In this document: piece by piece, positions 6,479 through 46,220 of the stretch
Layout: every line of letters begins with the position of its first letter
How positions within the stretch are numbered: position 1 is the first letter of the stretch
Source: a virus
DNA length: 64,000 bases
Virus record (IMG/VR): IMGVR_UViG_3300016665_000824
Coordinates: 1-64,000 of that record
Strand: one strand, 5' to 3'
Position numbers and translations under genes: made by a program
The notes under the pieces: generated by a model
Database searches by the model: none
What the model saw: the letters and a program-made list of their open reading frames with translations, nothing else
Told to the model about the DNA's origin: nothing

Positions 6479-6790
6479 GTGAAGTTCACTCCATTGCTAC
6501 TGTCCCTAGCCCTGTTCCCTGCCCCCACATGGGCAACAAAAAACATCAATACCCCCATTGAAAGTCAGCCCTGTACGACTATCGCCATTCCAAACGGAGG
6601 AACAGCTTGTGTGCCTCCGAAGGTGTCGCAGCGATTCAATGCGGCTCCTCGGATTGTCAAGCTGGGAGACACGATTCGCACTTATTACGAGACAAATGCT
6701 CGCCGTATCTGTCATGGATGGGGTGGTACTTATATCATGCCTCGCCCTGACGAGGAGCGAGCTTGGGATTGTTTCAAGGTTCAAGATTAG
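6479..6790 (+). CDS. small secreted Cys-containing protein (predicted N-terminal signal peptide)
   Basis: GTG start with GGAGG upstream; N-terminus MKFTPLLLSLALFPAPTWA is signal-peptide-like; 4 Cys in mature part. Confidence 0.55.
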   Translation: MKFTPLLLSLALFPAPTWATKNINTPIESQPCTTIAIPNGGTACVPPKVSQRFNAAPRIVKLGDTIRTYYETNARRICHGWGGTYIMPRPDEERAWDCFKVQD

Positions 6791-9061: not shown

Positions 9062-9349
9062 ATGCTCCCTGAGTCAATCGCATTGATTTCAAGCTCAAAA
9101 GATCCCCTACTTTTGCAGTCCAACGTTTCTGTTCGTGAGGTTCATACCTCTCAAATATCGGTAGGAGATACTATTCTCTGCCCCGACGGGACTGTTAGGA
9201 CAGTATGTAATAGAAACATTCATCGCTGCCCTTCTATGGGGCGTTCAATATTTGGAGATACCTATCAACTCGGACATAAGCCTGTCCTTAGAGTCGTAAT
9301 CACTAGAACCATATACAGAGAGGGAAAACAATGCTTCGTAGAAGTTTGA
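9062..9349 (+). CDS. hypothetical protein
   Basis: 95-codon ORF. Confidence 0.5.
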   Translation: MLPESIALISSSKDPLLLQSNVSVREVHTSQISVGDTILCPDGTVRTVCNRNIHRCPSMGRSIFGDTYQLGHKPVLRVVITRTIYREGKQCFVEV

Positions 9350-9630
9350 TTGTCGCTTCATTATTCTTGGCAGAAAGCGCGATCGCCACTCCACTTCCAC
9401 TCGACCCACACCTCTGCTACATGCAGAAATCGAATGGGCAGGTAGTCAACCTCGGTCACTTGTGCGGCAAGGGAGAGATCGCTCTCCCAGTTATAGGAGT
9501 AGCGCCAACTACCGCGACAACATCTACTCGTGCCACCTCCTCTGGGAAGTGTACATTTAGTGGTGATCGCGATTCTCGTGGAAATTTATGTGGCGGACGC
9601 GCAAGTGTTCGTCGTAAAGGAGGTAGGTAA
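9331..9630 (+). CDS. small secreted Cys-containing protein (predicted signal peptide)
   Basis: N-terminus MLRRSLIVASLFLAESAIA is signal-peptide-like; 4 Cys; Thr/Ser-rich linker; basic C-terminus. Confidence 0.55.
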   Translation: MLRRSLIVASLFLAESAIATPLPLDPHLCYMQKSNGQVVNLGHLCGKGEIALPVIGVAPTTATTSTRATSSGKCTFSGDRDSRGNLCGGRASVRRKGGR

Positions 9631-9866
9631 TGCCTGATACTGAGAAGATTTGGGCTTGGTGCGATCGCCATCAAAACTTGACTGGTATTCCACACGCGCT
9701 TTTGGTTTTTAAAACTTCGCGAGTCAGTTTTTTTGAGCCCTATAACATTCCTATATGGATTGCCGTTGCTCAGGAATGCAGGGAGTATTGGGTTTGCATC
9801 CAAGACGCGGAGGGTTCAACCCCAGAAGAAGCGATCGCCAAGCTAGCGGAGACATTAGGGTTATGA
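9630..9866 (+). CDS. hypothetical protein; C-terminal segment resembles HicB/UPF0150-like fold
   Basis: strong AGGAGG upstream; TAATG overlap; C-terminus ...CIQDAEGSTPEEAIAKLAETL resembles the PGC-G-T-EEA core of UPF0150 proteins (weak). Confidence 0.5.
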   Translation: MPDTEKIWAWCDRHQNLTGIPHALLVFKTSRVSFFEPYNIPIWIAVAQECREYWVCIQDAEGSTPEEAIAKLAETLGL

Positions 9867-10324
9867 CTACAAGATATTGCGTTACAAAACAAGTTCAATA
9901 TCCCGATGGCGATCGCGTTGTCGAGATATCTACAGGTACATTCGACTACGCTAATCCCGATTGCTTGAGCGACGGGATTAAGGAGTGCGAGACAGCTACT
10001 GAGGCTGTCGAGTATGCCATTGAGCTAGCACAAAAGTGGCAGGCTGAATGCGGTGAAGAAGTATTCATTGGCAAGGGCTATACAGGTGGCAACACCATGC
10101 CTTTCGATCCTTGGGAGCTTTGCGAAAACACTTATTCTCGCTTCCGATCATGGGCAAGAGAACGCGATGCGGACTTGCTGCGCTGCGATCATTGCGGTGA
10201 GGTCGTGAATGAGAAATATACCCTTCATCACTACCCAGACTTTGTTTTTTGCCGCGAATATTGCGCCGAAGAGTTTTTAGCTCAACAAGAAGAAGATCTA
10301 GAAAAGGAGTTTGAATATGCTTAA
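9863..10324 (+). CDS. hypothetical Cys-rich protein
   Basis: ATG 9863 in ATGA overlap with previous stop (track ORF 9755-10324); C-terminal CDHCG...FCREYC. Confidence 0.55.
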   Translation: MTTRYCVTKQVQYPDGDRVVEISTGTFDYANPDCLSDGIKECETATEAVEYAIELAQKWQAECGEEVFIGKGYTGGNTMPFDPWELCENTYSRFRSWARERDADLLRCDHCGEVVNEKYTLHHYPDFVFCREYCAEEFLAQQEEDLEKEFEYA

Positions 10325-37321: not shown

Positions 37322-37351
37322 GGTAACAAGGACTTGAGTCCTTGTTACCTT
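37320..37351. terminator. bidirectional terminator hairpin (14-bp stem) between convergent moron and tape-measure genes
   Basis: AAGGTAACAAGGAC ttga GTCCTTGTTACCTT; both stop codons lie in or at the stem. Confidence 0.65.
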
Positions 37352-40300
37352 ACTCCGCTAGTAACACCCGCTACTCGTCTCAAGACATTATTAAGCGTGT
37401 CATTAACAGCCTTCTGGACATCATTGCCCACACCCGCCGCAGAACTAATGTTGCTTTGAGTATTGATAGCGATCGGGGCATTAACCGTAATATTTCCACT
37501 TGTACCCAGAGCCGCACCCGTAGGATTGCCCTGTTGCTGAGGAACAAGATCTTTACCGCCAAGACTACCGAAAGCCTGCGCCAATGCCTCCGCTCTTTGA
37601 AGTTGTCCTTCGTCAAGCAAGGCGATCGGCTTGTCGAGTTTCTTCTGGGCTTCCTCAAATGCCTTGTCGTCGATCTTCAATGTCACGGGGTTCTCGGAGA
37701 TTTGCTTCGACACACGGTTAAATTCCGCTTCCAGTCCTGCGGTTAAATCTTTAACCTTGAGATCTGGGGCAACCAACACCTTGGAGAAGCCTTCATCGAT
37801 TTGCTGAGTTAACTTGTCGAACGAAGACGCGATCGCCTGTTCTGGCTTTGCTTCCTCCGTAGGTTTGCCACCGTACTTAGCGTTAAGCTCCTCAAACGAG
37901 TTGGCTTGAGCAGGATACTTCTTGTTAAGCTCCTCAAAGCTGCCTGCCATGCCCTTGTCGGGATATTTCTTGGCTAACTCCTCAAAGCTAGTAGCGAACG
38001 GTGCGTTATCAGGCTTTGGTTCGGGTGCAGCCGTAAATACTCCGCCCTGCTCAACCTGCCCAAGCAATGCCGAGGTGGGGTTCTTAAACGAAGCACCGCG
38101 AACATTAACAGGTTGGCTTGCCGCAGCCACAGCATTACTTACATCCGTGGTAGTCAATGCTGCTGTACCCGTATTTTGAGTTAAGCGAGCAAGCTGCTCT
38201 CGTTGTAGGCGCTCTTGCAGCGCAGGATCTCTAGTTGCGCCAATAACATCGCCGATCGCCGTATTAGTTTCGCCTTGCTGTTTATTGGCAAGAGCTTGAC
38301 GATCATTCTTGTTGACAATCTCGTTAACCTTGGCTTCGTCGGCAATGAAACCCTTTTCTTGCTGCAATCCACCCAATTCAAGAAAGTTCTTCTCCTGTCC
38401 AAGCTTGGCTTGAGCAAGTTTAAGCTTCGCCTCTTCGGACTGGGGACGTAGTTTAACCTCCAACTCGGCGGCTTTGATAGCAGCATCCTGTGAGGCAATG
38501 TCCACCTTCTTCTTGGCGATCGCGATTTCATTTTCGACCTTCTTGCGTTCAAGCAATAGGTCACGCTTCTGGATTTCCCGCTCCAAGGACTCGGCTTCAA
38601 ACTTTTGCTGTTGCTTGAGGGAATTAAGCTTAAGAACGGCAAGTTTTTCCGCAAGAATCAGCTTTTTCTCTTCGAGTTCGAGATCGGCAAAGTTGCCCTG
38701 ACCACCTGCGGCACGGATGGCAGCTTGTTGGCGATCGTAGATCTTGTTGAGAGCAGCAAACTCTGACTCGCGTAATGCCACTGTAGACTGGGCAAGTTTA
38801 TTTGCCGACTCGGATAGGCGGCTTTGATTCTCAAGCCCCTTTTCTAGTGCGGTGAATAATAGTTTTTGACGTTCAAGCTTGAGGTTTTGCTGCTCAATCG
38901 TGACCGCATACTTTTGTGATTCCAAGACTAGGCGATCGCGCACTGCGGAAACTAATCCTTCAATCGCCGCGAGTTCGGCTTCAGCGAGCTGTTTGGATAG
39001 TTCAGCAACCTTGATTAGATTAGCGTTCTTAGTTTCCTTGCTAACACCAACGCCCTTCTTCTCAAGATCGGCGATCGCCTTCTGCTTTTGTTGTTCGAGT
39101 TGCAGCTCTAAAGTGATACTGCGTTTACGTTCGGCAGTTTCTTGAAGCTTAATTTCAGATTCAAGCTTAATTCCCGACTTGCGGAGTTGAGCTATCTGAG
39201 CAAGACGCTGAGTCTCGCCAACCTTTTCGGCGGCAAGGGTCTCCTTAATCTGTGCATCCAATCCCTTAACAAAGCGCTCGGAACGGGCTTTGGCTATTTT
39301 TGCCTCAGCGTCCTTCCGTTTGTTGTCGGCATCCTCTTCTAATCGCGCTTTCTGGGCGGCGGTAGCCTTAACTAGATCAAGCTCTTTTTTGTTTGCGTCA
39401 GCAATAGAGTTTTTCGCCAAGTTTTGACGTTCGGCATCTGGCTTTGCGATTGAGGAAAGTTGATCCCTCTTTGTCTGCAACGTCCGAAGTTCAGACTCTT
39501 TCTTGGCGATCGCGTCCTGTTCCGCCTTGATCTGTGCGGTGTACTCCGAGGAATTAAAAAATGGCGCGTCTTTTACGGTGTTGAATCGCTGTAATGTCTC
39601 CGCATTCCCAGCTTTCAGACTAGACAAGGCTTTTTCCCCATCTTCAATCTGCTTCGTAATTCCCTCTAGCTGTCCCTGAGTATCCTCTGACAACTTTAAG
39701 GTGCTATCCAAGGTTCCTTTCTGGCTCTGGAGGCTATTAAGTCTTGATTGCAACACAGCAAGCTCGTCCGTTACTTTCTTAACGTCCTCGGCAGCGTTAT
39801 CTCCCGCAACACCCGTACTTATAGACTCTTGGAGAGCCTTCTTCCTTGCCTCTGCATCTTTGATCTGTTGACTGGTATCGTCGATCTTTCCTTGCAAGAC
39901 AGGAGCTTGAGCTTCCCTGACCTGCCGTATCTTTGAAGGATCTCCAGTTGCAGCAGCTAACTGCGCTTCCGCCAACTCGCGATCGCGCTTAATCTGTTGT
40001 TTCTGCTCATTAGCGTTGGTCTCCAAGATCTGCTGTCTTGCTCTTAGAGCCTTTTGATCGGCTTCAGACTGGGCTTGAATCTTCTTCTCCTCTAATTGTC
40101 CAGAGAGGGCGATCGATTCAGACTCAGAGATTCGCCCCGTGGCGAGCAAAGCTTGAATCTGGGAAAGTTGAGCGTCATAAATAGCTATGCGGCGATCCGC
40201 CTCCTTTTTGTACGCGGCAGTAATCGCTTCTTGAGCCTTTATCTGTAAATCGCGATCGGCAGAGACATTCGTAGCTACTTTTTGAAACGCTCCCGCAACT

Positions 40301-43300
40301 TCGTCTGCACGGAGAATCCCTGCATCTTGAAGGGCGTTAGCCGTTTCAAGCAACTCGCCCAACTTCGCCTTAAATAGCGCAGGATCTCCCGCAGACTTGT
40401 TTAAAGCGTCAAGGGCTGCATTATATTTTGAAGTTGCCTGCTCGATCGCATTACCAATACGAGGAAGATCAATAGCCTGAATTTGCAGGTTTACCGACTT
40501 GTAGGATTCTTGAAGTTTTCTAAGGGCTTCAAGTTCTCGATCTCTTTCTGCGTCTAAACCTTCTACAGCTTGAACCTGATTAATGATTGCCTCGATATTG
40601 TTGTTTCTTTCGGCGATCTCCTTCTTCTTATTCTCGATCTGAATATCAAAACGCGCAGCACCATCTTTGTCGCTTAGCGCTTCCGCCTTGGACTTTTCCT
40701 GCTCTAATTTAATTAAATCCTCTTGGAGTTTCTTCTGAGCAGACAGTCCTATTCCTAGATCAACCCGCCGAGAAGCTGACTGATTTAAGACGTTTTTATT
40801 ATCTTGCAATCTTATTTGGACGGCTTTCTCTTCAAGATTTCCTGCGCGATCGCCTAGACCTAACTTGTCGGAAGCGCCAAACGTTACCGTTCTTAGCCCC
40901 TCTCTTGCCGCGTCACCTGTAAGAGCAAAACCTTCTGTAACGCGAGTACCAATATTGTCTCTCTCTTTTTTAACCTTCTCCCTCAACGCGTCTTCGGAGT
41001 TGGTTGGTTTGCTTTGTAATCCCCTCAACTCTTTGAGTTTTGCGAGCTGTTGATCATACAGCTTTAAAGTGGGGTCATCTTGGAGGATGCTCTTGTCTTG
41101 GATTGAGGCAACATATTTTTCGCGTTCTGAGGTTAGGTTTGCTAGCTCAGAAGCGGCATCCTTTCCTTGCGATTTGTTTAGGATCGCAACCCTTGCGTCA
41201 CTATCTTTGAGCGCATCGTTGAGTTTGTCTACATTGGCTGTAGCTGCTTTTGTTTCCTGATCGACGTAGCCAACCAAGGTTGTTATTGCGGCGAAAGCTG
41301 CGCTTAACAATAATGTAGGACCAATTTCTGCGGCGAGGGCGGCGAAGGATTTGCTGATACCTTTGACATTCTCGGAAATAAACGAGGTAGCGCCTACAGC
41401 ACCCTTTTTGAGGTTTGAATAAAGTCCACCGACACTAACGTTCGCGTTTTGAGTGAAATCAGCAAAGCTAGACTTAGCTCGCGAGCCAAAATCTTTGACA
41501 CCAGAAAGAGCATCTTGGAAACCTGTCTTTAACCCAGCACCTAAATTTTTGAGGCTTAAATCGGGGAGAGAAATAGACTTGACTTGATTGACAAACTTAT
41601 CTATAGCGATACGAGAATTAGCCAAAGAAGCGGGAATATTTAGCTCTCTAAAGAACTTATCGAGTCCCAGTCTCGCGTTTGCAAGAGAGGTAGGGACGTT
41701 GATCTGGGAAAATGCTTTTTCAACCCCGTTGCGGAGGTTTACCAGCGAGGCAGGAATGTTGATATTTGCAAAGGCGTTCCGAATGCTAGCTTTAGTATTC
41801 TCAATTTGCGCGGGGAGATTTGCAAAGATACCAGTTTTTTGACTCGAATCCTGACTGAACCTTCCCTTAATGTCAGATATAAAACTACCAATAGAGTCGC
41901 CCAAGGACTTCAAAGAAGTTTTTGTCTTTGTGGCGATCGCTCCAATATCTTCTGCGAACTGTTTTGTGAACGGGACGGGAATTGGATTGGCAATAATCTG
42001 ACTTCGGAGCGACTTGATTCTGTCGGTAGTCTCCTGATAACTTTTAAGAGCCGCCGCACGAGCTTCGGGGGTTAACGACAGATCTGTAGAGTCTTTTTGG
42101 CTCACGATCGCCTGCTGTTTTAGTCCAGAGACCTCTCGTTTAGCGGCGACAACCTGAGTAGGATTTAGAGTCGTTGACTGAACTGGCTTGCCCCCAAGTA
42201 TTTCTCGAACACTATCGTTTAGCTTCTTGATGCGCCCAAAGGTTTCGCCAATACTGGCTCCAGCACCGCTAATTCCCGTGTTAATTGTCTTAAATACATT
42301 GGAGATTGTGCCACCAAACAGCTTGGTAACAGCGATCGCGATTAGCAATCCGCCAACTACTTTTTGAAAAGGATTGGAGTTCTCGCCAAAAGTAAAGAAC
42401 GGCAATATCGTGTCTGCAACCACCTTAATTACTGGTGCTAATACCGACCCTACCGTATCCGCAAACTTACGAATAGCTGCGGTTACATCCTGAATGATTT
42501 TTTGTAGACCTTTGTTCTTCAGGATTAACTGATCGAAGAAGACAAAACCAACAAATGTTCCAGCACCCAACAAGGCTGTTGATACGGCAAAAGACCTTGC
42601 CGCAGCTCCTGCCGCTTTTAATGAATTAGAGAAGATGCTGTTTACTTTCTCGGTATTTGTAGCGACATCGGCAAACTTGCCCAAGCTCTTGGCTGCGTCC
42701 GCAATCAACGGGCTAAACGAGCCAAATAGTTGGGACTTACCAACAATGCCTGAGAAAGCTGTTAAGGCGATCGGCGCTGCCTTCGTAAATCCTTGCAGTG
42801 CGGTTCCTAGCGCAGGAAATGCTTGAGTAAGTCCAATCAGTTTTACCCCAAAGCCACCTAGTGTTGGCAAAGCGGCAGTTATAACTCCCGCGAATGGCGA
42901 GAACGCACCGAGAACTTTGCCCAACTCTTTTTGGACTAAGCCAGCAGCACCAGGGATCTTGTTTAGATTCTCCGCCAACAACAGGAATCCAGCAGACCCT
43001 CGACCGACAACCGAACTTAAATTAGCAAAAGTGTTGACAACCCCGTTAGTACGCTTGTCAAGCAGGAAGAGAACTTCTCCCAAACCTGGTACAAGATTAA
43101 ACATCAACGAGAAGCCTTTGTTTAATGCCCCGATCGCGCCCGAAAGAACTTTTGCGCCGACGGAGATGCCGATCCAAATCCCTCCAAGAGGACCTACAAC
43201 ACCTGCAATTTGTTCAAACACATTAATAGCTGGCTGAACAACAGCAAGAGTAAGGCTCATCGCATCGGAAAAAGCCTTTACTGCGCCAGCGAGAGACTTG

Positions 43301-45780
43301 AATAGGTATTCTGGAACCTGCCCAAAGATCTGGAAGAATGGCCCCGCGAGACTTTTTAGGGTCGCAATCACGTTCTTGAATACGTCAAACAGTATTCCTG
43401 CGAGACTCCCTACTTGAGCAGCGATCGCGTCTTTATTCTTTGAGAAATACTGGTAAAACCCGTCAAGTTCCGCTACTAAAGGTGCGAGGAATTTCTCCCC
43501 AGCGAGTCTGCCGATCTCATCAACTAGCTCTTGAATATTGCTAACAATCCCACCCACGGACTGAGCAGCTAGCTTGTTTCCAGACTTAAATGCTTCTAAT
43601 CGACCTAAAAGCTCTTTGACGAAGGTTCCTTGAGACTTCCACTTAGCCACCATCTCATTGTTGAGGTTAAGCGATTTGGCAAGAGCTGAGTTTTGGTCAA
43701 TAGTTCCCGAAGTTATACTAACAACCTCTTGACGGGCTTGATATAAAGGTATGCCAAGCGTTCCGAGTGCGGCGGCGAACGAGGTTGTAATATTAGCAGC
43801 GTCATTCAAGGACGCGCCAATGTTGCTTGCCTGCCCAGCAACGATCTGAAAAACCCCGACAAGATCTTTACTGGTTACGCCGACCAGCTCTAACGAGTCT
43901 TTACGAATTTTATCGATCGCCCCTTCAACCGCAGGGCCAACCGCCTTGATCGCTTGAGTTGGATCTGATACGCGATCGCCATTAACTACGATTCTATTGG
44001 TTGCCGCTAAGCTCGCCTGAGTAGAGAGTAGTTGCTCTTGGAGCCTGATGTTTTGCCCAATCAACAGATCGAAAGGGCCGTTTTGTACAAATCCTTGGAG
44101 TGCCTGCAATCCCAATCCCAAGAAAGCAAGTCTCTGAGATACTTCAAAGATCGCGTTGGTTGCCTTGCCAGCACCTTCGCTAATTAGATTGAATACTTCT
44201 AGTGGTTCCGTCGCCCCCGCCACTGGAGCAACCACTGCGGCGGCAATATCTACAGGTTCTTGCAGCTTCGGGGCTATCTCTTGAGTCTTTTGAAACCCCT
44301 TAACGATAACATCATCAACACTATCGATGACAGTACCGACTTCGGCAAGGATTGTTGATCTCAGTCCATCAACAAAATTCTTACCTGCGATCGCGCCAGT
44401 ATCTTTTAAAAGCGAACTAAATGTTCCGCCAAAAAACTCGTCAATCTTGGTTGCAAGTTTTTGCAGTGAGCCATCCCCGCTTCCGATAGAATCAATCGCC
44501 GCGCCCAACCCTCCGTCAATAGCATCGACAGCTTTTAGGGCTAAATTCCTGAGAGGCGCAAGGATGCTAGTATCTTCTACGCTAAACAAGCTATTGAGAG
44601 CCTGTCCAACGCCTCCCTTTTGAGTCTCTATTAAAGGGCGGAGGATGGCAAAAGCGGATCTTAAATCCTCTGGAATTGCTTTTTCTAGTCCATTAAATAA
44701 CTGTCCAGACAACGCATTTCCAAAATCTTGCAACTCATTAGAGGCAACAATCGACCCCAAATTTGCCACCCCGATCTTGTTGGCAATCAGTTTTGCTAGT
44801 GGTGGTAGTGGCAACTTATCTACAAGCTGAGGGATTCGCCCCGCTAGGCGGTTGATCAGCTCAGATACAGAGCCGCCTAACTGTTCGTCAAGAATTTTAA
44901 ATTGATCGGTCGCCTCAGATCTGCTGCCGACGATTGCCCTGCCGACCGATCCTCCTAAAGCGCTAGATAAGCGCCCTACAACTCTTTGTCCGTCCTCAAC
45001 GTTTGGCGCGATTGCGTTAACGGCAAAAGCTTTAGCAGCACCCGATACCGACCCACCAGCCAACTGCTTCGACACTTCCGACAGCAATCCAGTTTTTGCC
45101 GCAGTCCGAAATGAGTTGGCGACAATTGAGGTTAAATCCGCCCCGAAAGCTTGGTTAACAATACCTTTTAAAGCGTCGGGGAGTCCTCCCCCAACAACGC
45201 CCGAAATGAGTGAGTCGGCGATCGCGTTATCTAGCGTTCCAGTAAAAGCCTCAACTCCCACTCCAAGCTTGCGCTGAATTTCTTGATTTAGCTTTGAAGC
45301 CCTAACATTTGCTTCTAACGCTTTACCGAAACTGTTTGCAGAATCGCTAAGTATCTGCGTAATTCTCTTGCCGTTATCCGAAAATATTGCAGACTGAGCT
45401 TGCTCTGCCGACTGCTTAGATAAGAATCCTCCTCCGACATCTTTTCCTGCAGAGGTAATCCCCTTGATTACCTTTGAGAGCGGAGCTAGTTTTGAAACTG
45501 CACTGTCGGCGACATTCGAGATCTGTTCTAAAAATATTTTGCCCGACTGCGTATCTAGTACATCTCGAACCGACTGAATTGCGTCTCTCAGCCCTCCAAA
45601 CGTGCCAATCGCGGTTGCCCCTACCGTGCTGATCGTTCCGCCAAGGGCTTGTACAGATCCCTTTGTTACGTCCGCAACAACACCAACACTTTTTAGACCA
45701 GCAGCTATCTCCGAAACTTGTTTGCTTGCTTGATCTTTCGCCTGTATTAAGATCTCAACAATATTGGTTTGCGGAGCCAT
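37345..45780 (-). CDS. tape measure protein (2811 aa)
   Basis: giant ORF with Gly/Ala-rich hydrophobic N-terminal half and ~1000-aa coiled-coil (Q/E/K/A-rich) half, upstream of baseplate/fibre genes. Confidence 0.75.
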   Translation of the reverse strand: MAPQTNIVEILIQAKDQASKQVSEIAAGLKSVGVVADVTKGSVQALGGTISTVGATAIGTFGGLRDAIQSVRDVLDTQSGKIFLEQISNVADSAVSKLAPLSKVIKGITSAGKDVGGGFLSKQSAEQAQSAIFSDNGKRITQILSDSANSFGKALEANVRASKLNQEIQRKLGVGVEAFTGTLDNAIADSLISGVVGGGLPDALKGIVNQAFGADLTSIVANSFRTAAKTGLLSEVSKQLAGGSVSGAAKAFAVNAIAPNVEDGQRVVGRLSSALGGSVGRAIVGSRSEATDQFKILDEQLGGSVSELINRLAGRIPQLVDKLPLPPLAKLIANKIGVANLGSIVASNELQDFGNALSGQLFNGLEKAIPEDLRSAFAILRPLIETQKGGVGQALNSLFSVEDTSILAPLRNLALKAVDAIDGGLGAAIDSIGSGDGSLQKLATKIDEFFGGTFSSLLKDTGAIAGKNFVDGLRSTILAEVGTVIDSVDDVIVKGFQKTQEIAPKLQEPVDIAAAVVAPVAGATEPLEVFNLISEGAGKATNAIFEVSQRLAFLGLGLQALQGFVQNGPFDLLIGQNIRLQEQLLSTQASLAATNRIVVNGDRVSDPTQAIKAVGPAVEGAIDKIRKDSLELVGVTSKDLVGVFQIVAGQASNIGASLNDAANITTSFAAALGTLGIPLYQARQEVVSITSGTIDQNSALAKSLNLNNEMVAKWKSQGTFVKELLGRLEAFKSGNKLAAQSVGGIVSNIQELVDEIGRLAGEKFLAPLVAELDGFYQYFSKNKDAIAAQVGSLAGILFDVFKNVIATLKSLAGPFFQIFGQVPEYLFKSLAGAVKAFSDAMSLTLAVVQPAINVFEQIAGVVGPLGGIWIGISVGAKVLSGAIGALNKGFSLMFNLVPGLGEVLFLLDKRTNGVVNTFANLSSVVGRGSAGFLLLAENLNKIPGAAGLVQKELGKVLGAFSPFAGVITAALPTLGGFGVKLIGLTQAFPALGTALQGFTKAAPIALTAFSGIVGKSQLFGSFSPLIADAAKSLGKFADVATNTEKVNSIFSNSLKAAGAAARSFAVSTALLGAGTFVGFVFFDQLILKNKGLQKIIQDVTAAIRKFADTVGSVLAPVIKVVADTILPFFTFGENSNPFQKVVGGLLIAIAVTKLFGGTISNVFKTINTGISGAGASIGETFGRIKKLNDSVREILGGKPVQSTTLNPTQVVAAKREVSGLKQQAIVSQKDSTDLSLTPEARAAALKSYQETTDRIKSLRSQIIANPIPVPFTKQFAEDIGAIATKTKTSLKSLGDSIGSFISDIKGRFSQDSSQKTGIFANLPAQIENTKASIRNAFANINIPASLVNLRNGVEKAFSQINVPTSLANARLGLDKFFRELNIPASLANSRIAIDKFVNQVKSISLPDLSLKNLGAGLKTGFQDALSGVKDFGSRAKSSFADFTQNANVSVGGLYSNLKKGAVGATSFISENVKGISKSFAALAAEIGPTLLLSAAFAAITTLVGYVDQETKAATANVDKLNDALKDSDARVAILNKSQGKDAASELANLTSEREKYVASIQDKSILQDDPTLKLYDQQLAKLKELRGLQSKPTNSEDALREKVKKERDNIGTRVTEGFALTGDAAREGLRTVTFGASDKLGLGDRAGNLEEKAVQIRLQDNKNVLNQSASRRVDLGIGLSAQKKLQEDLIKLEQEKSKAEALSDKDGAARFDIQIENKKKEIAERNNNIEAIINQVQAVEGLDAERDRELEALRKLQESYKSVNLQIQAIDLPRIGNAIEQATSKYNAALDALNKSAGDPALFKAKLGELLETANALQDAGILRADEVAGAFQKVATNVSADRDLQIKAQEAITAAYKKEADRRIAIYDAQLSQIQALLATGRISESESIALSGQLEEKKIQAQSEADQKALRARQQILETNANEQKQQIKRDRELAEAQLAAATGDPSKIRQVREAQAPVLQGKIDDTSQQIKDAEARKKALQESISTGVAGDNAAEDVKKVTDELAVLQSRLNSLQSQKGTLDSTLKLSEDTQGQLEGITKQIEDGEKALSSLKAGNAETLQRFNTVKDAPFFNSSEYTAQIKAEQDAIAKKESELRTLQTKRDQLSSIAKPDAERQNLAKNSIADANKKELDLVKATAAQKARLEEDADNKRKDAEAKIAKARSERFVKGLDAQIKETLAAEKVGETQRLAQIAQLRKSGIKLESEIKLQETAERKRSITLELQLEQQKQKAIADLEKKGVGVSKETKNANLIKVAELSKQLAEAELAAIEGLVSAVRDRLVLESQKYAVTIEQQNLKLERQKLLFTALEKGLENQSRLSESANKLAQSTVALRESEFAALNKIYDRQQAAIRAAGGQGNFADLELEEKKLILAEKLAVLKLNSLKQQQKFEAESLEREIQKRDLLLERKKVENEIAIAKKKVDIASQDAAIKAAELEVKLRPQSEEAKLKLAQAKLGQEKNFLELGGLQQEKGFIADEAKVNEIVNKNDRQALANKQQGETNTAIGDVIGATRDPALQERLQREQLARLTQNTGTAALTTTDVSNAVAAASQPVNVRGASFKNPTSALLGQVEQGGVFTAAPEPKPDNAPFATSFEELAKKYPDKGMAGSFEELNKKYPAQANSFEELNAKYGGKPTEEAKPEQAIASSFDKLTQQIDEGFSKVLVAPDLKVKDLTAGLEAEFNRVSKQISENPVTLKIDDKAFEEAQKKLDKPIALLDEGQLQRAEALAQAFGSLGGKDLVPQQQGNPTGAALGTSGNITVNAPIAINTQSNISSAAGVGNDVQKAVNDTLNNVLRRVAGVTSGVR
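37840..37995 (-). repeat. three tandem ~45-nt repeats encoding SFEEL-x-KKYP inside the tape measure gene
   Basis: GCTCCTCAAA recurs three times on + strand; protein repeats SFEELAKKYP / SFEELNKKYP / SFEELNAKYG. Confidence 0.6.
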
Positions 45781-45823: not shown

Positions 45824-46171
45824 TTACTTTTGCTTTAGCTTTTCTGGCTCATATCGCGACACCAAGGCGATAAGCAGATCTTGAGACGGCTTTATTTCTG
45901 AGTCAGCCCATTCTTTGAAATACTTGTGATATCTAGAACAGCTAGCCTCGGCTTTAGCGGTTTGCTCTAGGGCTAGCTGCTTCGTGGGGTCGCTATCAGG
46001 GAGGGTCTTTAACCCCTCCTCTTTTCCTAGCAGACTATACGAAGTCGAGCAATACCTGTAATCTTCGGCGATCGCTGTCGCTGCCGACTTGGACTGAAAA
46101 GACCTTACAGCGCCAACTGAAAGCAACGCTAGCACGACTACCGCCCCTAATGTGATTGGATTAAGCTTCAT
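45824..46171 (-). CDS. hypothetical protein with N-terminal signal peptide/membrane anchor (115 aa)
   Basis: internal ATG 46171 of track ORF 45824-46288; N-terminus MKLNPITLGAVVVLALLSVGAV. Confidence 0.5.
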   Translation of the reverse strand: MKLNPITLGAVVVLALLSVGAVRSFQSKSAATAIAEDYRYCSTSYSLLGKEEGLKTLPDSDPTKQLALEQTAKAEASCSRYHKYFKEWADSEIKPSQDLLIALVSRYEPEKLKQK

Positions 46172-46220
46172 TGATTTTTGTGATTTCTTCACGAAGATTA
46201 TAGCGCGATCGCCTCGCAAT

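What the first reader, a model, noticed from the sequence alone, without database searches (positions are those of the whole stretch)
9331..9630. Second small secreted Cys-containing protein (99 aa)
N-terminus MLRRSLIVASLFLAESAIA is signal-peptide-like; the mature part has four Cys, a Thr/Ser-rich linker and a basic C-terminus. It is unrelated in sequence to the protein at 6479, so the early region carries at least two independent exported proteins.
Basis: partly seen in the sequence, partly recalled or inferred. Interest (0 to 1): 0.45.

Follow-up and report, generated by a model that had tools for sequence, protein, structure and literature searches.

The report
Cyanophage secreted two-module disulfide mini-protein
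This is a real, conserved cyanophage gene for a small protein exported to the host cell envelope, built from two tiny disulfide-locked modules; one module also occurs in over a thousand uncharacterised bacterial and prophage proteins, and nobody knows what it does.

Summary
ORF 9331-9630 (+) encodes a 99-aa protein with a Sec-type signal peptide (AIA|T after residue 19), four Cys, a Thr/Ser-rich linker and a basic C-terminus. It is a real gene: five syntenic phage orthologues, dN/dS 0.17-0.39.

The four Cys belong to two independent modules.
- N module, residues ~21-47, C-x15-C: a predicted beta-hairpin, found only in cyanobacteria here.
- C module, residues ~70-99, G-x-C-x12-C-G-x-R-A...R-x-G-G-R-COOH: it recurs in cyanobacteria, Rhizobiales, Pasteurellaceae, Acinetobacter and Bdellovibrionales. 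In some Acinetobacter and Alcaligenes phages it is the whole mature product of a 47-aa gene laid out like a moron.

Pfam and NCBIfam have no model, and no solved structure or paper was found. PHROGs holds the C module (phrog_14503, "membrane associated protein").

Anabaena phage Elbi gp81 carries the same C module on an unrelated body. The Excalibur Ca2+-loop resemblance fails the defining features.

The most likely role is an envelope-acting phage effector such as superinfection exclusion. That role is inferred, not shown.

Verdict: a solid, moderately interesting lead and a new variant of a catalogued but uncharacterised kind.

The parts
9318..9324 (+). Shine-Dalgarno-like GAGAGGG upstream of the ATG
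   Evidence: Read directly from the sequence; about 7 nt spacing to ATG 9331. Inference only.
9331..9387 (+). Sec-type signal peptide, residues 1-19 (MLRRSLIVASLFLAESAIA), with predicted SPase I cleavage after A-I-A
   Evidence: n-charge +2, h-region mean KD 2.9, AXA at -3/-1, no lipobox. The c-region ES[AT]IA is invariant in 6 orthologues while the h-region varies. The AIA codons are an in-frame HIP1 site GCGATCGC at 9379-9386.
9391..9471 (+). N module, residues ~21-47 (PLPxDPHxC-[YF]-M-x4-G-x3-[ND]-L-x2-L-C-G); Cys29-Cys45 (C-x15-C) is the inferred disulfide
   Evidence: The regex/HMM-defined module is present in 53 N+C and 11 N-only proteins. AF2 predicts a beta-hairpin E30-32/E38-40 with pLDDT about 80. 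It was found only in cyanobacterial loci.
9472..9537 (+). Low-complexity Pro/Thr/Ser/Ala linker, residues ~48-69, predicted disordered
   Evidence: pLDDT below 50 for residues 47-70. Length and sequence vary among orthologues and across the family.
9538..9627 (+). C module, residues 70-99 (SSGKCTFSGDRDSRGNLCGGRASVRRKGGR); Cys74-Cys87 (C-x12-C) is the inferred disulfide; ends one residue after GG
   Evidence: An independent HMM built from 80 non-cyanobacterial modules gives E = 9e-10, aligned end to end. The same module is found in 74/74 viral-contig pattern hits and about 107/119 genome hits. The module-only AF2 model has pLDDT 78.
9628..9632 (+). TAATG stop/start overlap with downstream ORF 9630-9866
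   Evidence: Read directly from the sequence. The same gene order is kept in sister phages.

Best explanation
The gene encodes a 99-aa pre-protein that the host Sec system exports and signal peptidase I cleaves after Ala19. The 80-aa mature protein ends up in the periplasm or cell envelope of the infected filamentous cyanobacterium.

The mature protein is a dumbbell. A cyanobacteria-specific N module (a beta-hairpin closed by Cys29-Cys45) and a pan-bacterial C module (a compact loop closed by Cys74-Cys87, followed by a basic R-A-S-x-R-R-x-G-G-R tail) are joined by a flexible Thr/Ser/Pro linker.

It is the phage version of an uncharacterised secreted protein family of Nostocales and other cyanobacteria. 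Its C module is the same unit that some Acinetobacter and Alcaligenes phages carry as a stand-alone secreted 27-28-residue peptide in a moron-like gene layout.

Inferred mechanism: each module binds an envelope component, and the phage uses the protein during infection to alter the envelope. The most plausible purposes are blocking a second infection or otherwise taking over an envelope function, as other small exported phage proteins do.

Shown: the gene is real, its sequence is conserved, it has signal-peptide architecture, it is modular, and it belongs to the family. Inferred: actual export and cleavage, the disulfide pairing, and envelope binding. Speculative: the specific role in superinfection exclusion.
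For: Gene reality: five syntenic phage orthologues and dN/dS of 0.17-0.39.

Export: n/h/c signal-peptide architecture with an invariant AXA site and a variable h-region. Nearly all of the more than 1,000 relatives also begin with a signal peptide or a lipoprotein signal.

Modularity: 53 N+C, 11 N-only and 17 C-only proteins among 78 profile hits. Each module always carries exactly its own Cys pair.

Portability: Anabaena phage Elbi gp81 is a signal peptide, an unrelated phrog_35968 body and the C module. Fusions of the C module to SNase and to SH3_3 exist.

Stand-alone form: 47-aa precursors in Acinetobacter prophages, and a solitary opposite-strand gene with its own RBS and terminator between tail genes in Alcaligenes phage Piluca. 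PHROGs files these under 'moron, auxiliary metabolic gene and host takeover'.

Independent membership: an HMM built without any cyanobacterial sequence hits the window ORF at E = 9e-10.

Structure: both modules are predicted at pLDDT about 80-85 and the linker is predicted disordered.
Against: There is no experimental or computational evidence for any binding partner or phenotype.

The window protein itself is below threshold for the PHROG models.

The gene is not arranged as a moron here. It is translationally packed inside a long co-directional operon of small genes.

The C module is not phage-specific. In Haemophilus it lies in a core chromosomal context between htpG and HTH/ArsC genes, so a housekeeping envelope role is equally possible.

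Signal-peptide prediction rests on heuristics, because SignalP was not available. Some databases call relatives 'transmembrane anchored'.
Confidence: 0.5

Rival explanations
1. The C module is an Excalibur/EF-hand-like Ca2+-binding loop stapled by a disulfide. The protein would be a metal-dependent folding or metal-binding unit in the envelope. This is compatible with export; it concerns what the module does.
For: The loop D-R-D-S-R-G-N-L-C is in register with positions 1, 3, 6 and 9 of Excalibur's D-x-D-x-D-G-x-x-C-E. One relative (L174, Thiodictyon MAG) fuses a staphylococcal-nuclease domain to the C module, the same partnership as SNase plus Excalibur in B. subtilis YokF (YokF architecture from my own knowledge; PMC5137146 cites YokF only for Ca2+ binding). 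The top Foldseek hits, which are not significant, are Ca2+-binding LDL-receptor A modules.
Confidence: 0.2
2. The phage protein is a mimic or decoy of the host's own N+C secreted proteins. It would compete for their periplasmic partner and so subvert a cyanobacterium-specific envelope or intercellular process, possibly spreading along the filament through the shared periplasm.
For: The N module was found only in cyanobacteria (17/17 assignable loci). There are 360 host-type N+C clusters, mostly Nostocales. The phage protein keeps both modules and all four Cys but is only about 30-39 % identical to host versions. The nearest isolated phages infect filamentous Aphanizomenon and Planktothrix.
Against: The function of the host family is unknown. 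Several 'host' copies sit in blocks of small unannotated ORFs with phage-associated domains (T5orf172, HTH_3), alone on the opposite strand, so they may themselves be mobile-element cargo. There is no evidence for diffusion or competition.
Confidence: 0.15
3. The N-terminal hydrophobic segment is an uncleaved signal anchor, so the protein is tethered to the cytoplasmic membrane. This is the 'transmembrane anchored protein' reading given by some annotations.
For: Source annotations of relatives read 'transmembrane anchored protein' or 'membrane associated protein'.
Against: The hydrophobic core is only about 10 residues and is followed by Glu15 and a canonical, invariant A-x-A site. In the 47-aa relatives an uncleaved anchor would leave almost no room for a functional ectodomain spacer. 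Those annotations are automatic names, not experiments.
Confidence: 0.1
4. Chance ORF or non-functional remnant.
For: None beyond its small size and the lack of Pfam, NCBIfam, PHROG or PADLOC hits for the window protein itself.
Against: Conserved position, length and reading frame in five diverged phages; dN/dS of 0.17-0.39; profile hits to hundreds of proteins.
Confidence: 0.02

Closest known systems
PHROG families phrog_14503 ('membrane associated protein', category moron/AMG/host takeover), phrog_3117 and phrog_27544
   Same: They share the C-terminal module G-x-C-x12-C-G-x-R-A-[AS]-x2-R-x-G-G-[RK]-COOH behind a signal peptide. Host N+C proteins and stand-alone prophage peptides hit these models at 1e-5 to 1e-13. 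An HMM of such modules hits the window ORF at 9e-10.
   Different: The window protein and its closest orthologue do not reach the PHROG thresholds. It carries an additional cyanobacteria-specific N module and a linker. It sits inside a co-directional small-gene operon, not as a solitary opposite-strand moron. These PHROGs have no experimentally known function.
Anabaena phage Elbi gp81 (QVQ57086.1, hypothetical protein)
   Same: Signal peptide plus a C-terminal GSCVYPSDLDSIGRRCGGRASSVRKGGR* (61 % identical over 28 aa). It lies in a co-directional cluster of small, mostly hypothetical genes in a phage of a heterocystous cyanobacterium.
   Different: The body of gp81 (residues 1-116, phrog_35968) is unrelated and replaces the N module and linker.
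Excalibur extracellular Ca2+-binding domain (Pfam PF05901; NMR structure 5J8T of CbpL)
   Same: A small extracellular, disulfide-stapled unit with an Asp-rich loop ending G-x-x-C. It occurs after signal peptides, next to low-complexity linkers, and fused to staphylococcal-nuclease domains.
   Different: There is no HMM match. The Cys spacing is 12 rather than about 30. The Ca2+ ligands D5 and E10 are absent (E10 is an invariant Gly). Asp at position 3 and Asp at position 5 are mutually exclusive. No structural match was found.
Small exported superinfection-exclusion or moron proteins of other phages (T4 Sp and Imm, T5 Llp, lambdoid Cor and Bor, Streptococcus Ltp); from my own knowledge, with Ltp also described in PMC5137146
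   Same: A small phage-encoded protein with an export signal, acting in the envelope, located either in an early region or as a prophage moron.
   Different: There is no sequence or fold relationship and no lipobox (Llp, Cor, Bor and Ltp are lipoproteins). The functional analogy is untested.

Membership tests
C-module superfamily (phrog_14503/3117/27544-type secreted mini-domain) | Core pattern G-x-C-x12-C-G-x-R-A | tested here: met
   Residues 72-91, GKCTFSGDRDSRGNLCGGRA.
C-module superfamily (phrog_14503/3117/27544-type secreted mini-domain) | Basic tail R-x-G-G-[RK] ending the protein one residue after GG | tested here: met
   The protein ends ...VRRKGGR-stop. The same termination is seen in most of the 74 viral and most of the true genome hits.
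C-module superfamily (phrog_14503/3117/27544-type secreted mini-domain) | Exactly one Asp/Asn at loop position 3 or 5 (191/203 modules) | tested here: met
   D81 at position 3 and R83 at position 5; class (D,D,R), 28 of 203 modules.
C-module superfamily (phrog_14503/3117/27544-type secreted mini-domain) | Significant match to a profile built without the query or its close relatives | tested here: met
   An HMM of 80 non-cyanobacterial modules gives 34.6 bits, E = 9e-10 over 1437 six-frame segments; the next best scores 0.14.
C-module superfamily (phrog_14503/3117/27544-type secreted mini-domain) | Direct hit to the PHROG HMMs | tested here: not met
   No PHROG at E <= 0.1 for the window protein or at E <= 0.01 for P0002. 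Host N+C proteins P0011 and P0117 do hit.
Cyanobacterial N+C secreted family (unnamed; 360 clusters) | Signal peptide, then C-[YFW]-[MAI]-x4-G-x3-[ND]-L-x2-[LMI]-C (C-x15-C), then a low-complexity linker, then the C module | tested here: met
   Residues 29-45 read CYMQKSNGQVVNLGHLC. The N-module HMM scores 47 bits and has a single copy in the window. The profile search recovers the family.
Sec/SPase I signal peptide | Positive n-region, 7-15-residue hydrophobic h-region, small residues at -3/-1 | tested here: met
   Charge +2; SLIVASLFLA; A-I-A|T. The pattern is conserved in six orthologues. This is a heuristic test only.
Sec/SPase I signal peptide | Positive call by a trained predictor (SignalP, DeepTMHMM) or experimental cleavage | not testable with these tools
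Bacterial lipoprotein (as in Llp, Cor or o-spanin type phage proteins) | Lipobox [LVI]-[ASTG]-[GA]-C at the end of the signal peptide | tested here: not met
   There is no Cys before residue 29. The c-region is ESAIA|T.
Excalibur (PF05901) | Match to the Pfam model | tested here: not met
   No hit at E <= 1 (whole protein) or at E <= 10 (isolated module).
Excalibur (PF05901) | DxDxDGxxCE with D1, D3, D5 and E10 as Ca2+ ligands (PMC5137146) | tested here: not met
   The window has D-R-D-S-R-G-N-L-C-G. D5 is replaced by R and E10 by G; position 10 is Gly in 200/203 modules.
Excalibur (PF05901) | Two conserved Cys about 30 residues apart, linking a helix to the loop | tested here: not met
   The Cys spacing is 12, and there is no helix before the loop in the model.
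Excalibur (PF05901) | Ca2+-dependent folding | not testable with these tools
   This needs NMR or ITC on the peptide.
PatS/HetN/PatX RGSGR-type heterocyst inhibitor peptides | RG[ST]GR pentapeptide | tested here: not met
   The C-terminus is RKGGR. The R-x-G-G-R tail is equally conserved in Acinetobacter, Haemophilus and Rhizobiales; that these taxa form no heterocysts is from my own knowledge.

The most novel reading that the evidence does not exclude
The 27-28-residue C module is a previously undescribed, autonomously folding, disulfide-stapled secreted mini-domain. It has no Pfam or NCBIfam model, no solved structure and no paper, yet fills more than 1,100 clusters at 90 % identity across at least four phyla. 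Phages repeatedly capture it as an envelope-acting effector. In filamentous cyanobacteria, phages pair it with a lineage-specific N module to make a bivalent periplasmic protein that could spread through the filament's continuous periplasm and protect or condition neighbouring cells.
Probability: 0.12. Interest if true: 0.8.

Novelty: new variant of a known kind. Interest (0 to 1): 0.45.

Why it matters
Small exported phage proteins are a classic route to superinfection exclusion and lysogenic conversion, yet almost none are known for cyanophages of bloom-forming filamentous cyanobacteria.

This gene links such a phage to a very large, entirely uncharacterised family. The core is short enough (27-28 residues, one disulfide) to be made by chemical synthesis. 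Binding partners, metal dependence and structure are therefore directly testable.

The Acinetobacter baumannii prophage version offers a tractable genetic system. Defining the function there would annotate over a thousand "hypothetical" genes at once.

Tried and rejected
Searches that found nothing:
- Megablast of 20 kb of the window against phage and plasmid collections gave no match.
- Pfam, NCBIfam, PHROGs and PADLOC gave nothing for the window protein.
- Pfam and NCBIfam gave nothing for ten diverse relatives or for the isolated module.
I replaced it with a hand-written degenerate DNA pattern.
- The PDB profile search with the C module gave 0 hits at E <= 10.
- A literature search for motif strings found nothing relevant.

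Readings considered and rejected:
- Excalibur membership: the defining ligands and the Cys spacing are absent.
- Lipoprotein or spanin: there is no lipobox, and the gene lies among small unannotated genes, outside the head and tail-like gene block.
- PatS-like RGSGR signalling: the motif is wrong and it occurs in non-cyanobacteria.
- Tat signal: the RR is not conserved; orthologues have KK, RK or KR.
- The Nostoc chromosomal loci are not prophage copies of this phage. They share only this one gene with the window.
- A strictly phage-associated module: the Haemophilus copy is in a core chromosomal context.

Full report
**1. The observation**

The window holds an ATG-initiated ORF at 9331-9630 (+) that encodes exactly the 99-aa sequence quoted. 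Its reading frame opens at 9307 and contains no earlier start codon. A GAGGG motif lies about 7 nt upstream. The start overlaps the preceding ORF (9062-9349) by 19 nt, and the stop shares a base with the next ATG (TAATG). The gene is therefore packed into a long co-directional operon. Promoter-like sites are not enriched over shuffles across 3-15 kb, and no convincing promoter or terminator flanks the gene.

**2. Replicon**

GCGATCGC (HIP1) occurs 135 times, against 1.2 expected. The window also encodes a head-maturation protease, a major head protein and large tail-type proteins on the opposite strand. There is no nucleotide match to known phages or plasmids. The capsid protein is only about 33 % identical to those of Aphanizomenon phage CL131 and Planktothrix phage PaV-LD. 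The window therefore comes from a novel large tailed phage of a HIP1-rich, probably filamentous, freshwater cyanobacterium.

**3. Is it a real gene?**

Five orthologues (P0002-P0006, 58-68 % identity) come from metagenomic contigs of up to 139 kb. These contigs are syntenic with the window. The gene always lies between the homologue of 9062-9349 (about 85 % identical) and the homologue of 9630-9866. Pairwise dN/dS is 0.17-0.39, and about half of all substitutions fall at third codon positions. A chance ORF is excluded.

**4. Signal peptide**

All six proteins have a +1/+2 n-region, a hydrophobic core of about 10 residues whose residues vary, an invariant c-region E-S-[AT]-I-A, and an A-x-A|[AT]-P-L-P junction. 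There is no lipobox. The twin arginine is not conserved (orthologues have KK, RK or KR), which argues against Tat. The A-I-A codons are an in-frame HIP1 palindrome, also present in two of the three orthologues whose DNA was examined. SignalP could not be run, so cleavage is an inference from architecture.

**5. Anatomy of the mature protein**

An exhaustive profile search of 1.84 billion representatives with the six-sequence alignment gave 78 hits. Sorting them by motif shows two separable modules.

- The N module is C-[YF]-M-x4-G-x3-[ND]-L-x2-L-C, i.e. C-x15-C.
- The C module is G-x-C-x-[YFV]-[PS]-x-[DQ]-x-[DA]-[SA]-x-G-x2-C-G-x-R-A-[AS]-x2-R-x-G-G-[RK], i.e. C-x12-C. In most proteins it ends exactly one residue after GG.

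Of the hits, 53 proteins have both modules, 11 have only N and 17 have only C. Each module always brings its own Cys pair. The disulfides are therefore inferred to be C29-C45 and C74-C87.

AlphaFold2 models both modules at pLDDT about 80, with a beta-hairpin for N, and models the linker as disordered. A module-only model of the C module reaches pLDDT 78, with a core near 85. The window contains only one copy of each module, and the 6479 protein has neither.

**6. Distribution**

A degenerate DNA pattern for the C module found 74 loci in IMG/VR. All are true modules, from contigs with GC 0.37-0.70. It also found 119 loci in species-representative genomes. About 107 of these are true; the rest are chance matches in DNA above 66 % GC.

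Hosts include Nostoc, Anabaena, Dolichospermum, Calothrix, Rivularia, Nodosilinea and Leptolyngbya. They also include Rhizobium, Devosia, Methyloligella and Bradyrhizobium, as well as Haemophilus, Rodentibacter, Acinetobacter, Bdellovibrionales and others. The N module accompanies the C module only in cyanobacterial loci (17 of 17 assignable).

Word-index searches return 360 clusters of the N+C type, mainly Nostocales, and 791 clusters of the stand-alone type. All are named 'hypothetical' or 'transmembrane anchored protein', and none has a Pfam domain.

**7. The stand-alone form**

In Acinetobacter prophages, Alcaligenes phage Piluca, Haemophilus, Devosia and others, the whole mature product is the C module. 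The precursors are 46-55 aa, for example MKTLILAAILALPATMTFA|GSCDHSWQSAKDGSSCGDRAADRRPGGR. In Piluca and in an Acinetobacter prophage the gene is solitary, on the opposite strand between tail genes. In Piluca an RBS and a terminator of its own are annotated. That is the layout of a moron.

PHROGs already groups these proteins as phrog_14503 ('membrane associated protein', moron/host-takeover category), phrog_3117 and phrog_27544. The module is not exclusively phage-borne. The Haemophilus copy lies between htpG and HTH/ArsC genes, whereas a Mesorhizobium copy abuts a phage integrase.

**8. Portability**

Anabaena phage Elbi gp81 consists of a signal peptide, an unrelated phrog_35968 body and the C module. 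Other partners are a staphylococcal-nuclease domain, SH3_3 domains and an Adhesin_E-like region. The window protein does not reach the PHROG thresholds. However, an HMM built only from 80 non-cyanobacterial modules aligns to it end to end at E = 9e-10, and the next best segment in the window scores 0.14.

**9. What the C module might do**

The loop aligns in register with positions 1, 3, 6 and 9 of Excalibur's DxDxDGxxCE, and the SNase fusion echoes B. subtilis YokF. Membership nevertheless fails on four counts:

- There is no Pfam match.
- The Cys spacing is 12 instead of about 30.
- The Glu ligand is an invariant Gly (200/203 modules).
- Asp at position 3 and Asp/Asn at position 5 are mutually exclusive (191/203).

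**10. Most likely mechanism**

Shown: the gene is real and conserved, the protein has a signal-peptide architecture, and it is built from two independent Cys modules that belong to large secreted families.

Inferred: Sec export, SPase I cleavage at 19|20, two intramodule disulfides, and a flexible dumbbell located in the periplasm or envelope.

Speculative: it acts as an envelope-binding effector during infection. The roles that fit best are superinfection exclusion or another envelope takeover, by analogy with T4 Sp and Imm, T5 Llp, Cor and Ltp, and in line with the moron placement of the stand-alone form.

Rivals are a metal-binding Excalibur-like unit, a decoy of the host N+C family, and an uncleaved membrane anchor.

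**11. Novelty**

The C module is catalogued in PHROGs but functionally and structurally unknown. It is absent from Pfam and NCBIfam. The N module and the N+C architecture are not modelled in Pfam, NCBIfam, PHROGs or PADLOC. The window gene is a diverged, two-module version sitting in a phage small-gene operon. I rate it a new variant of a known but uncharacterised kind, with moderate interest.

Noticed in passing
window 9379-9386 (also L002, L008): The predicted signal-peptidase motif A-I-A is encoded by an in-frame HIP1 palindrome, GCG ATC GC(C). The site is conserved in two of the three orthologues whose DNA was examined, and L006 has ACGATCGC (T-I-A). HIP1 read in frame 0 always gives Ala-Ile-Ala, a ready-made AXA cleavage site.
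   Followed up: partly
window 6479-6790 (+): A second small exported-looking protein (103 aa, GTG start, signal MKFTPLLLSLALFPAPTWA|T, 4 Cys). It is 79 % identical in sister phages and has no Pfam, NCBIfam, PHROG or PADLOC match. It is unrelated to the 9331 protein.
   Followed up: partly
whole window: HIP1 (GCGATCGC) occurs 135 times in 64 kb against 1.2 expected, so the phage genome is as HIP1-saturated as a host cyanobacterial genome.
   Followed up: no
window 37345-45780 (-): A single 2811-aa ORF sits in the structural arm, flanked by other large ORFs without Pfam domains (1108, 872, 819 and 735 aa).
   Followed up: no
window 45824-46192 (-): An ORF in the structural arm has an N-terminal hydrophobic segment (MKLNPITLGAVVVLALLSVGAVRS...). 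It could be a membrane or exported protein.
   Followed up: no
window 9863-10324 (+): A 153-aa protein two genes downstream of the finding has weak treble-clef/zinc-ribbon-like matches (VATC E = 0.0013, Lar, TRASH) around residues 103-138.
   Followed up: no
L084 (Alcaligenes phage Piluca MZ326864, 35228-35371) and L085 (Acinetobacter prophage): The 47-aa stand-alone C-module gene is a solitary opposite-strand gene between tail genes of epsilon15-like phages. In Piluca an RBS and a terminator of its own are annotated. This is a textbook moron layout.
   Followed up: yes
L168, L184, L201 (Methylobacterium): A four-Cys variant of the C module, CACPYQSARNGSSCGRRAAY-x-RPGGYAPLC[YF], follows an SH3_3 domain. 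It scores about 31 bits against the C-module HMM, which suggests a wider superfamily.
   Followed up: partly
P0019, P0023, P0068, L109, L154, L159, L202: In some proteins the C module is followed by a basic repeat Y-[VT]-[RK]-[PG]-Y-T-R-x-[DN]-G-T-x-V-x-G-[HY]-x-R.
   Followed up: no
L205 (Nostoc sp. C052 chromosome) and L206 (Nostoc sp. JL23): Host N+C genes sit alone on one strand inside syntenic blocks of small unannotated ORFs that carry T5orf172, HTH_3 and Rv2179c-like domains. These may be mobile elements, but they share no other gene with this window.
   Followed up: partly
L174 (Thiodictyon MAG contig): A secreted staphylococcal-nuclease homologue (PF00565, E = 1.6e-23) carries the C module at its C-terminus. 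This parallels the SNase plus Excalibur architecture of B. subtilis YokF.
   Followed up: partly
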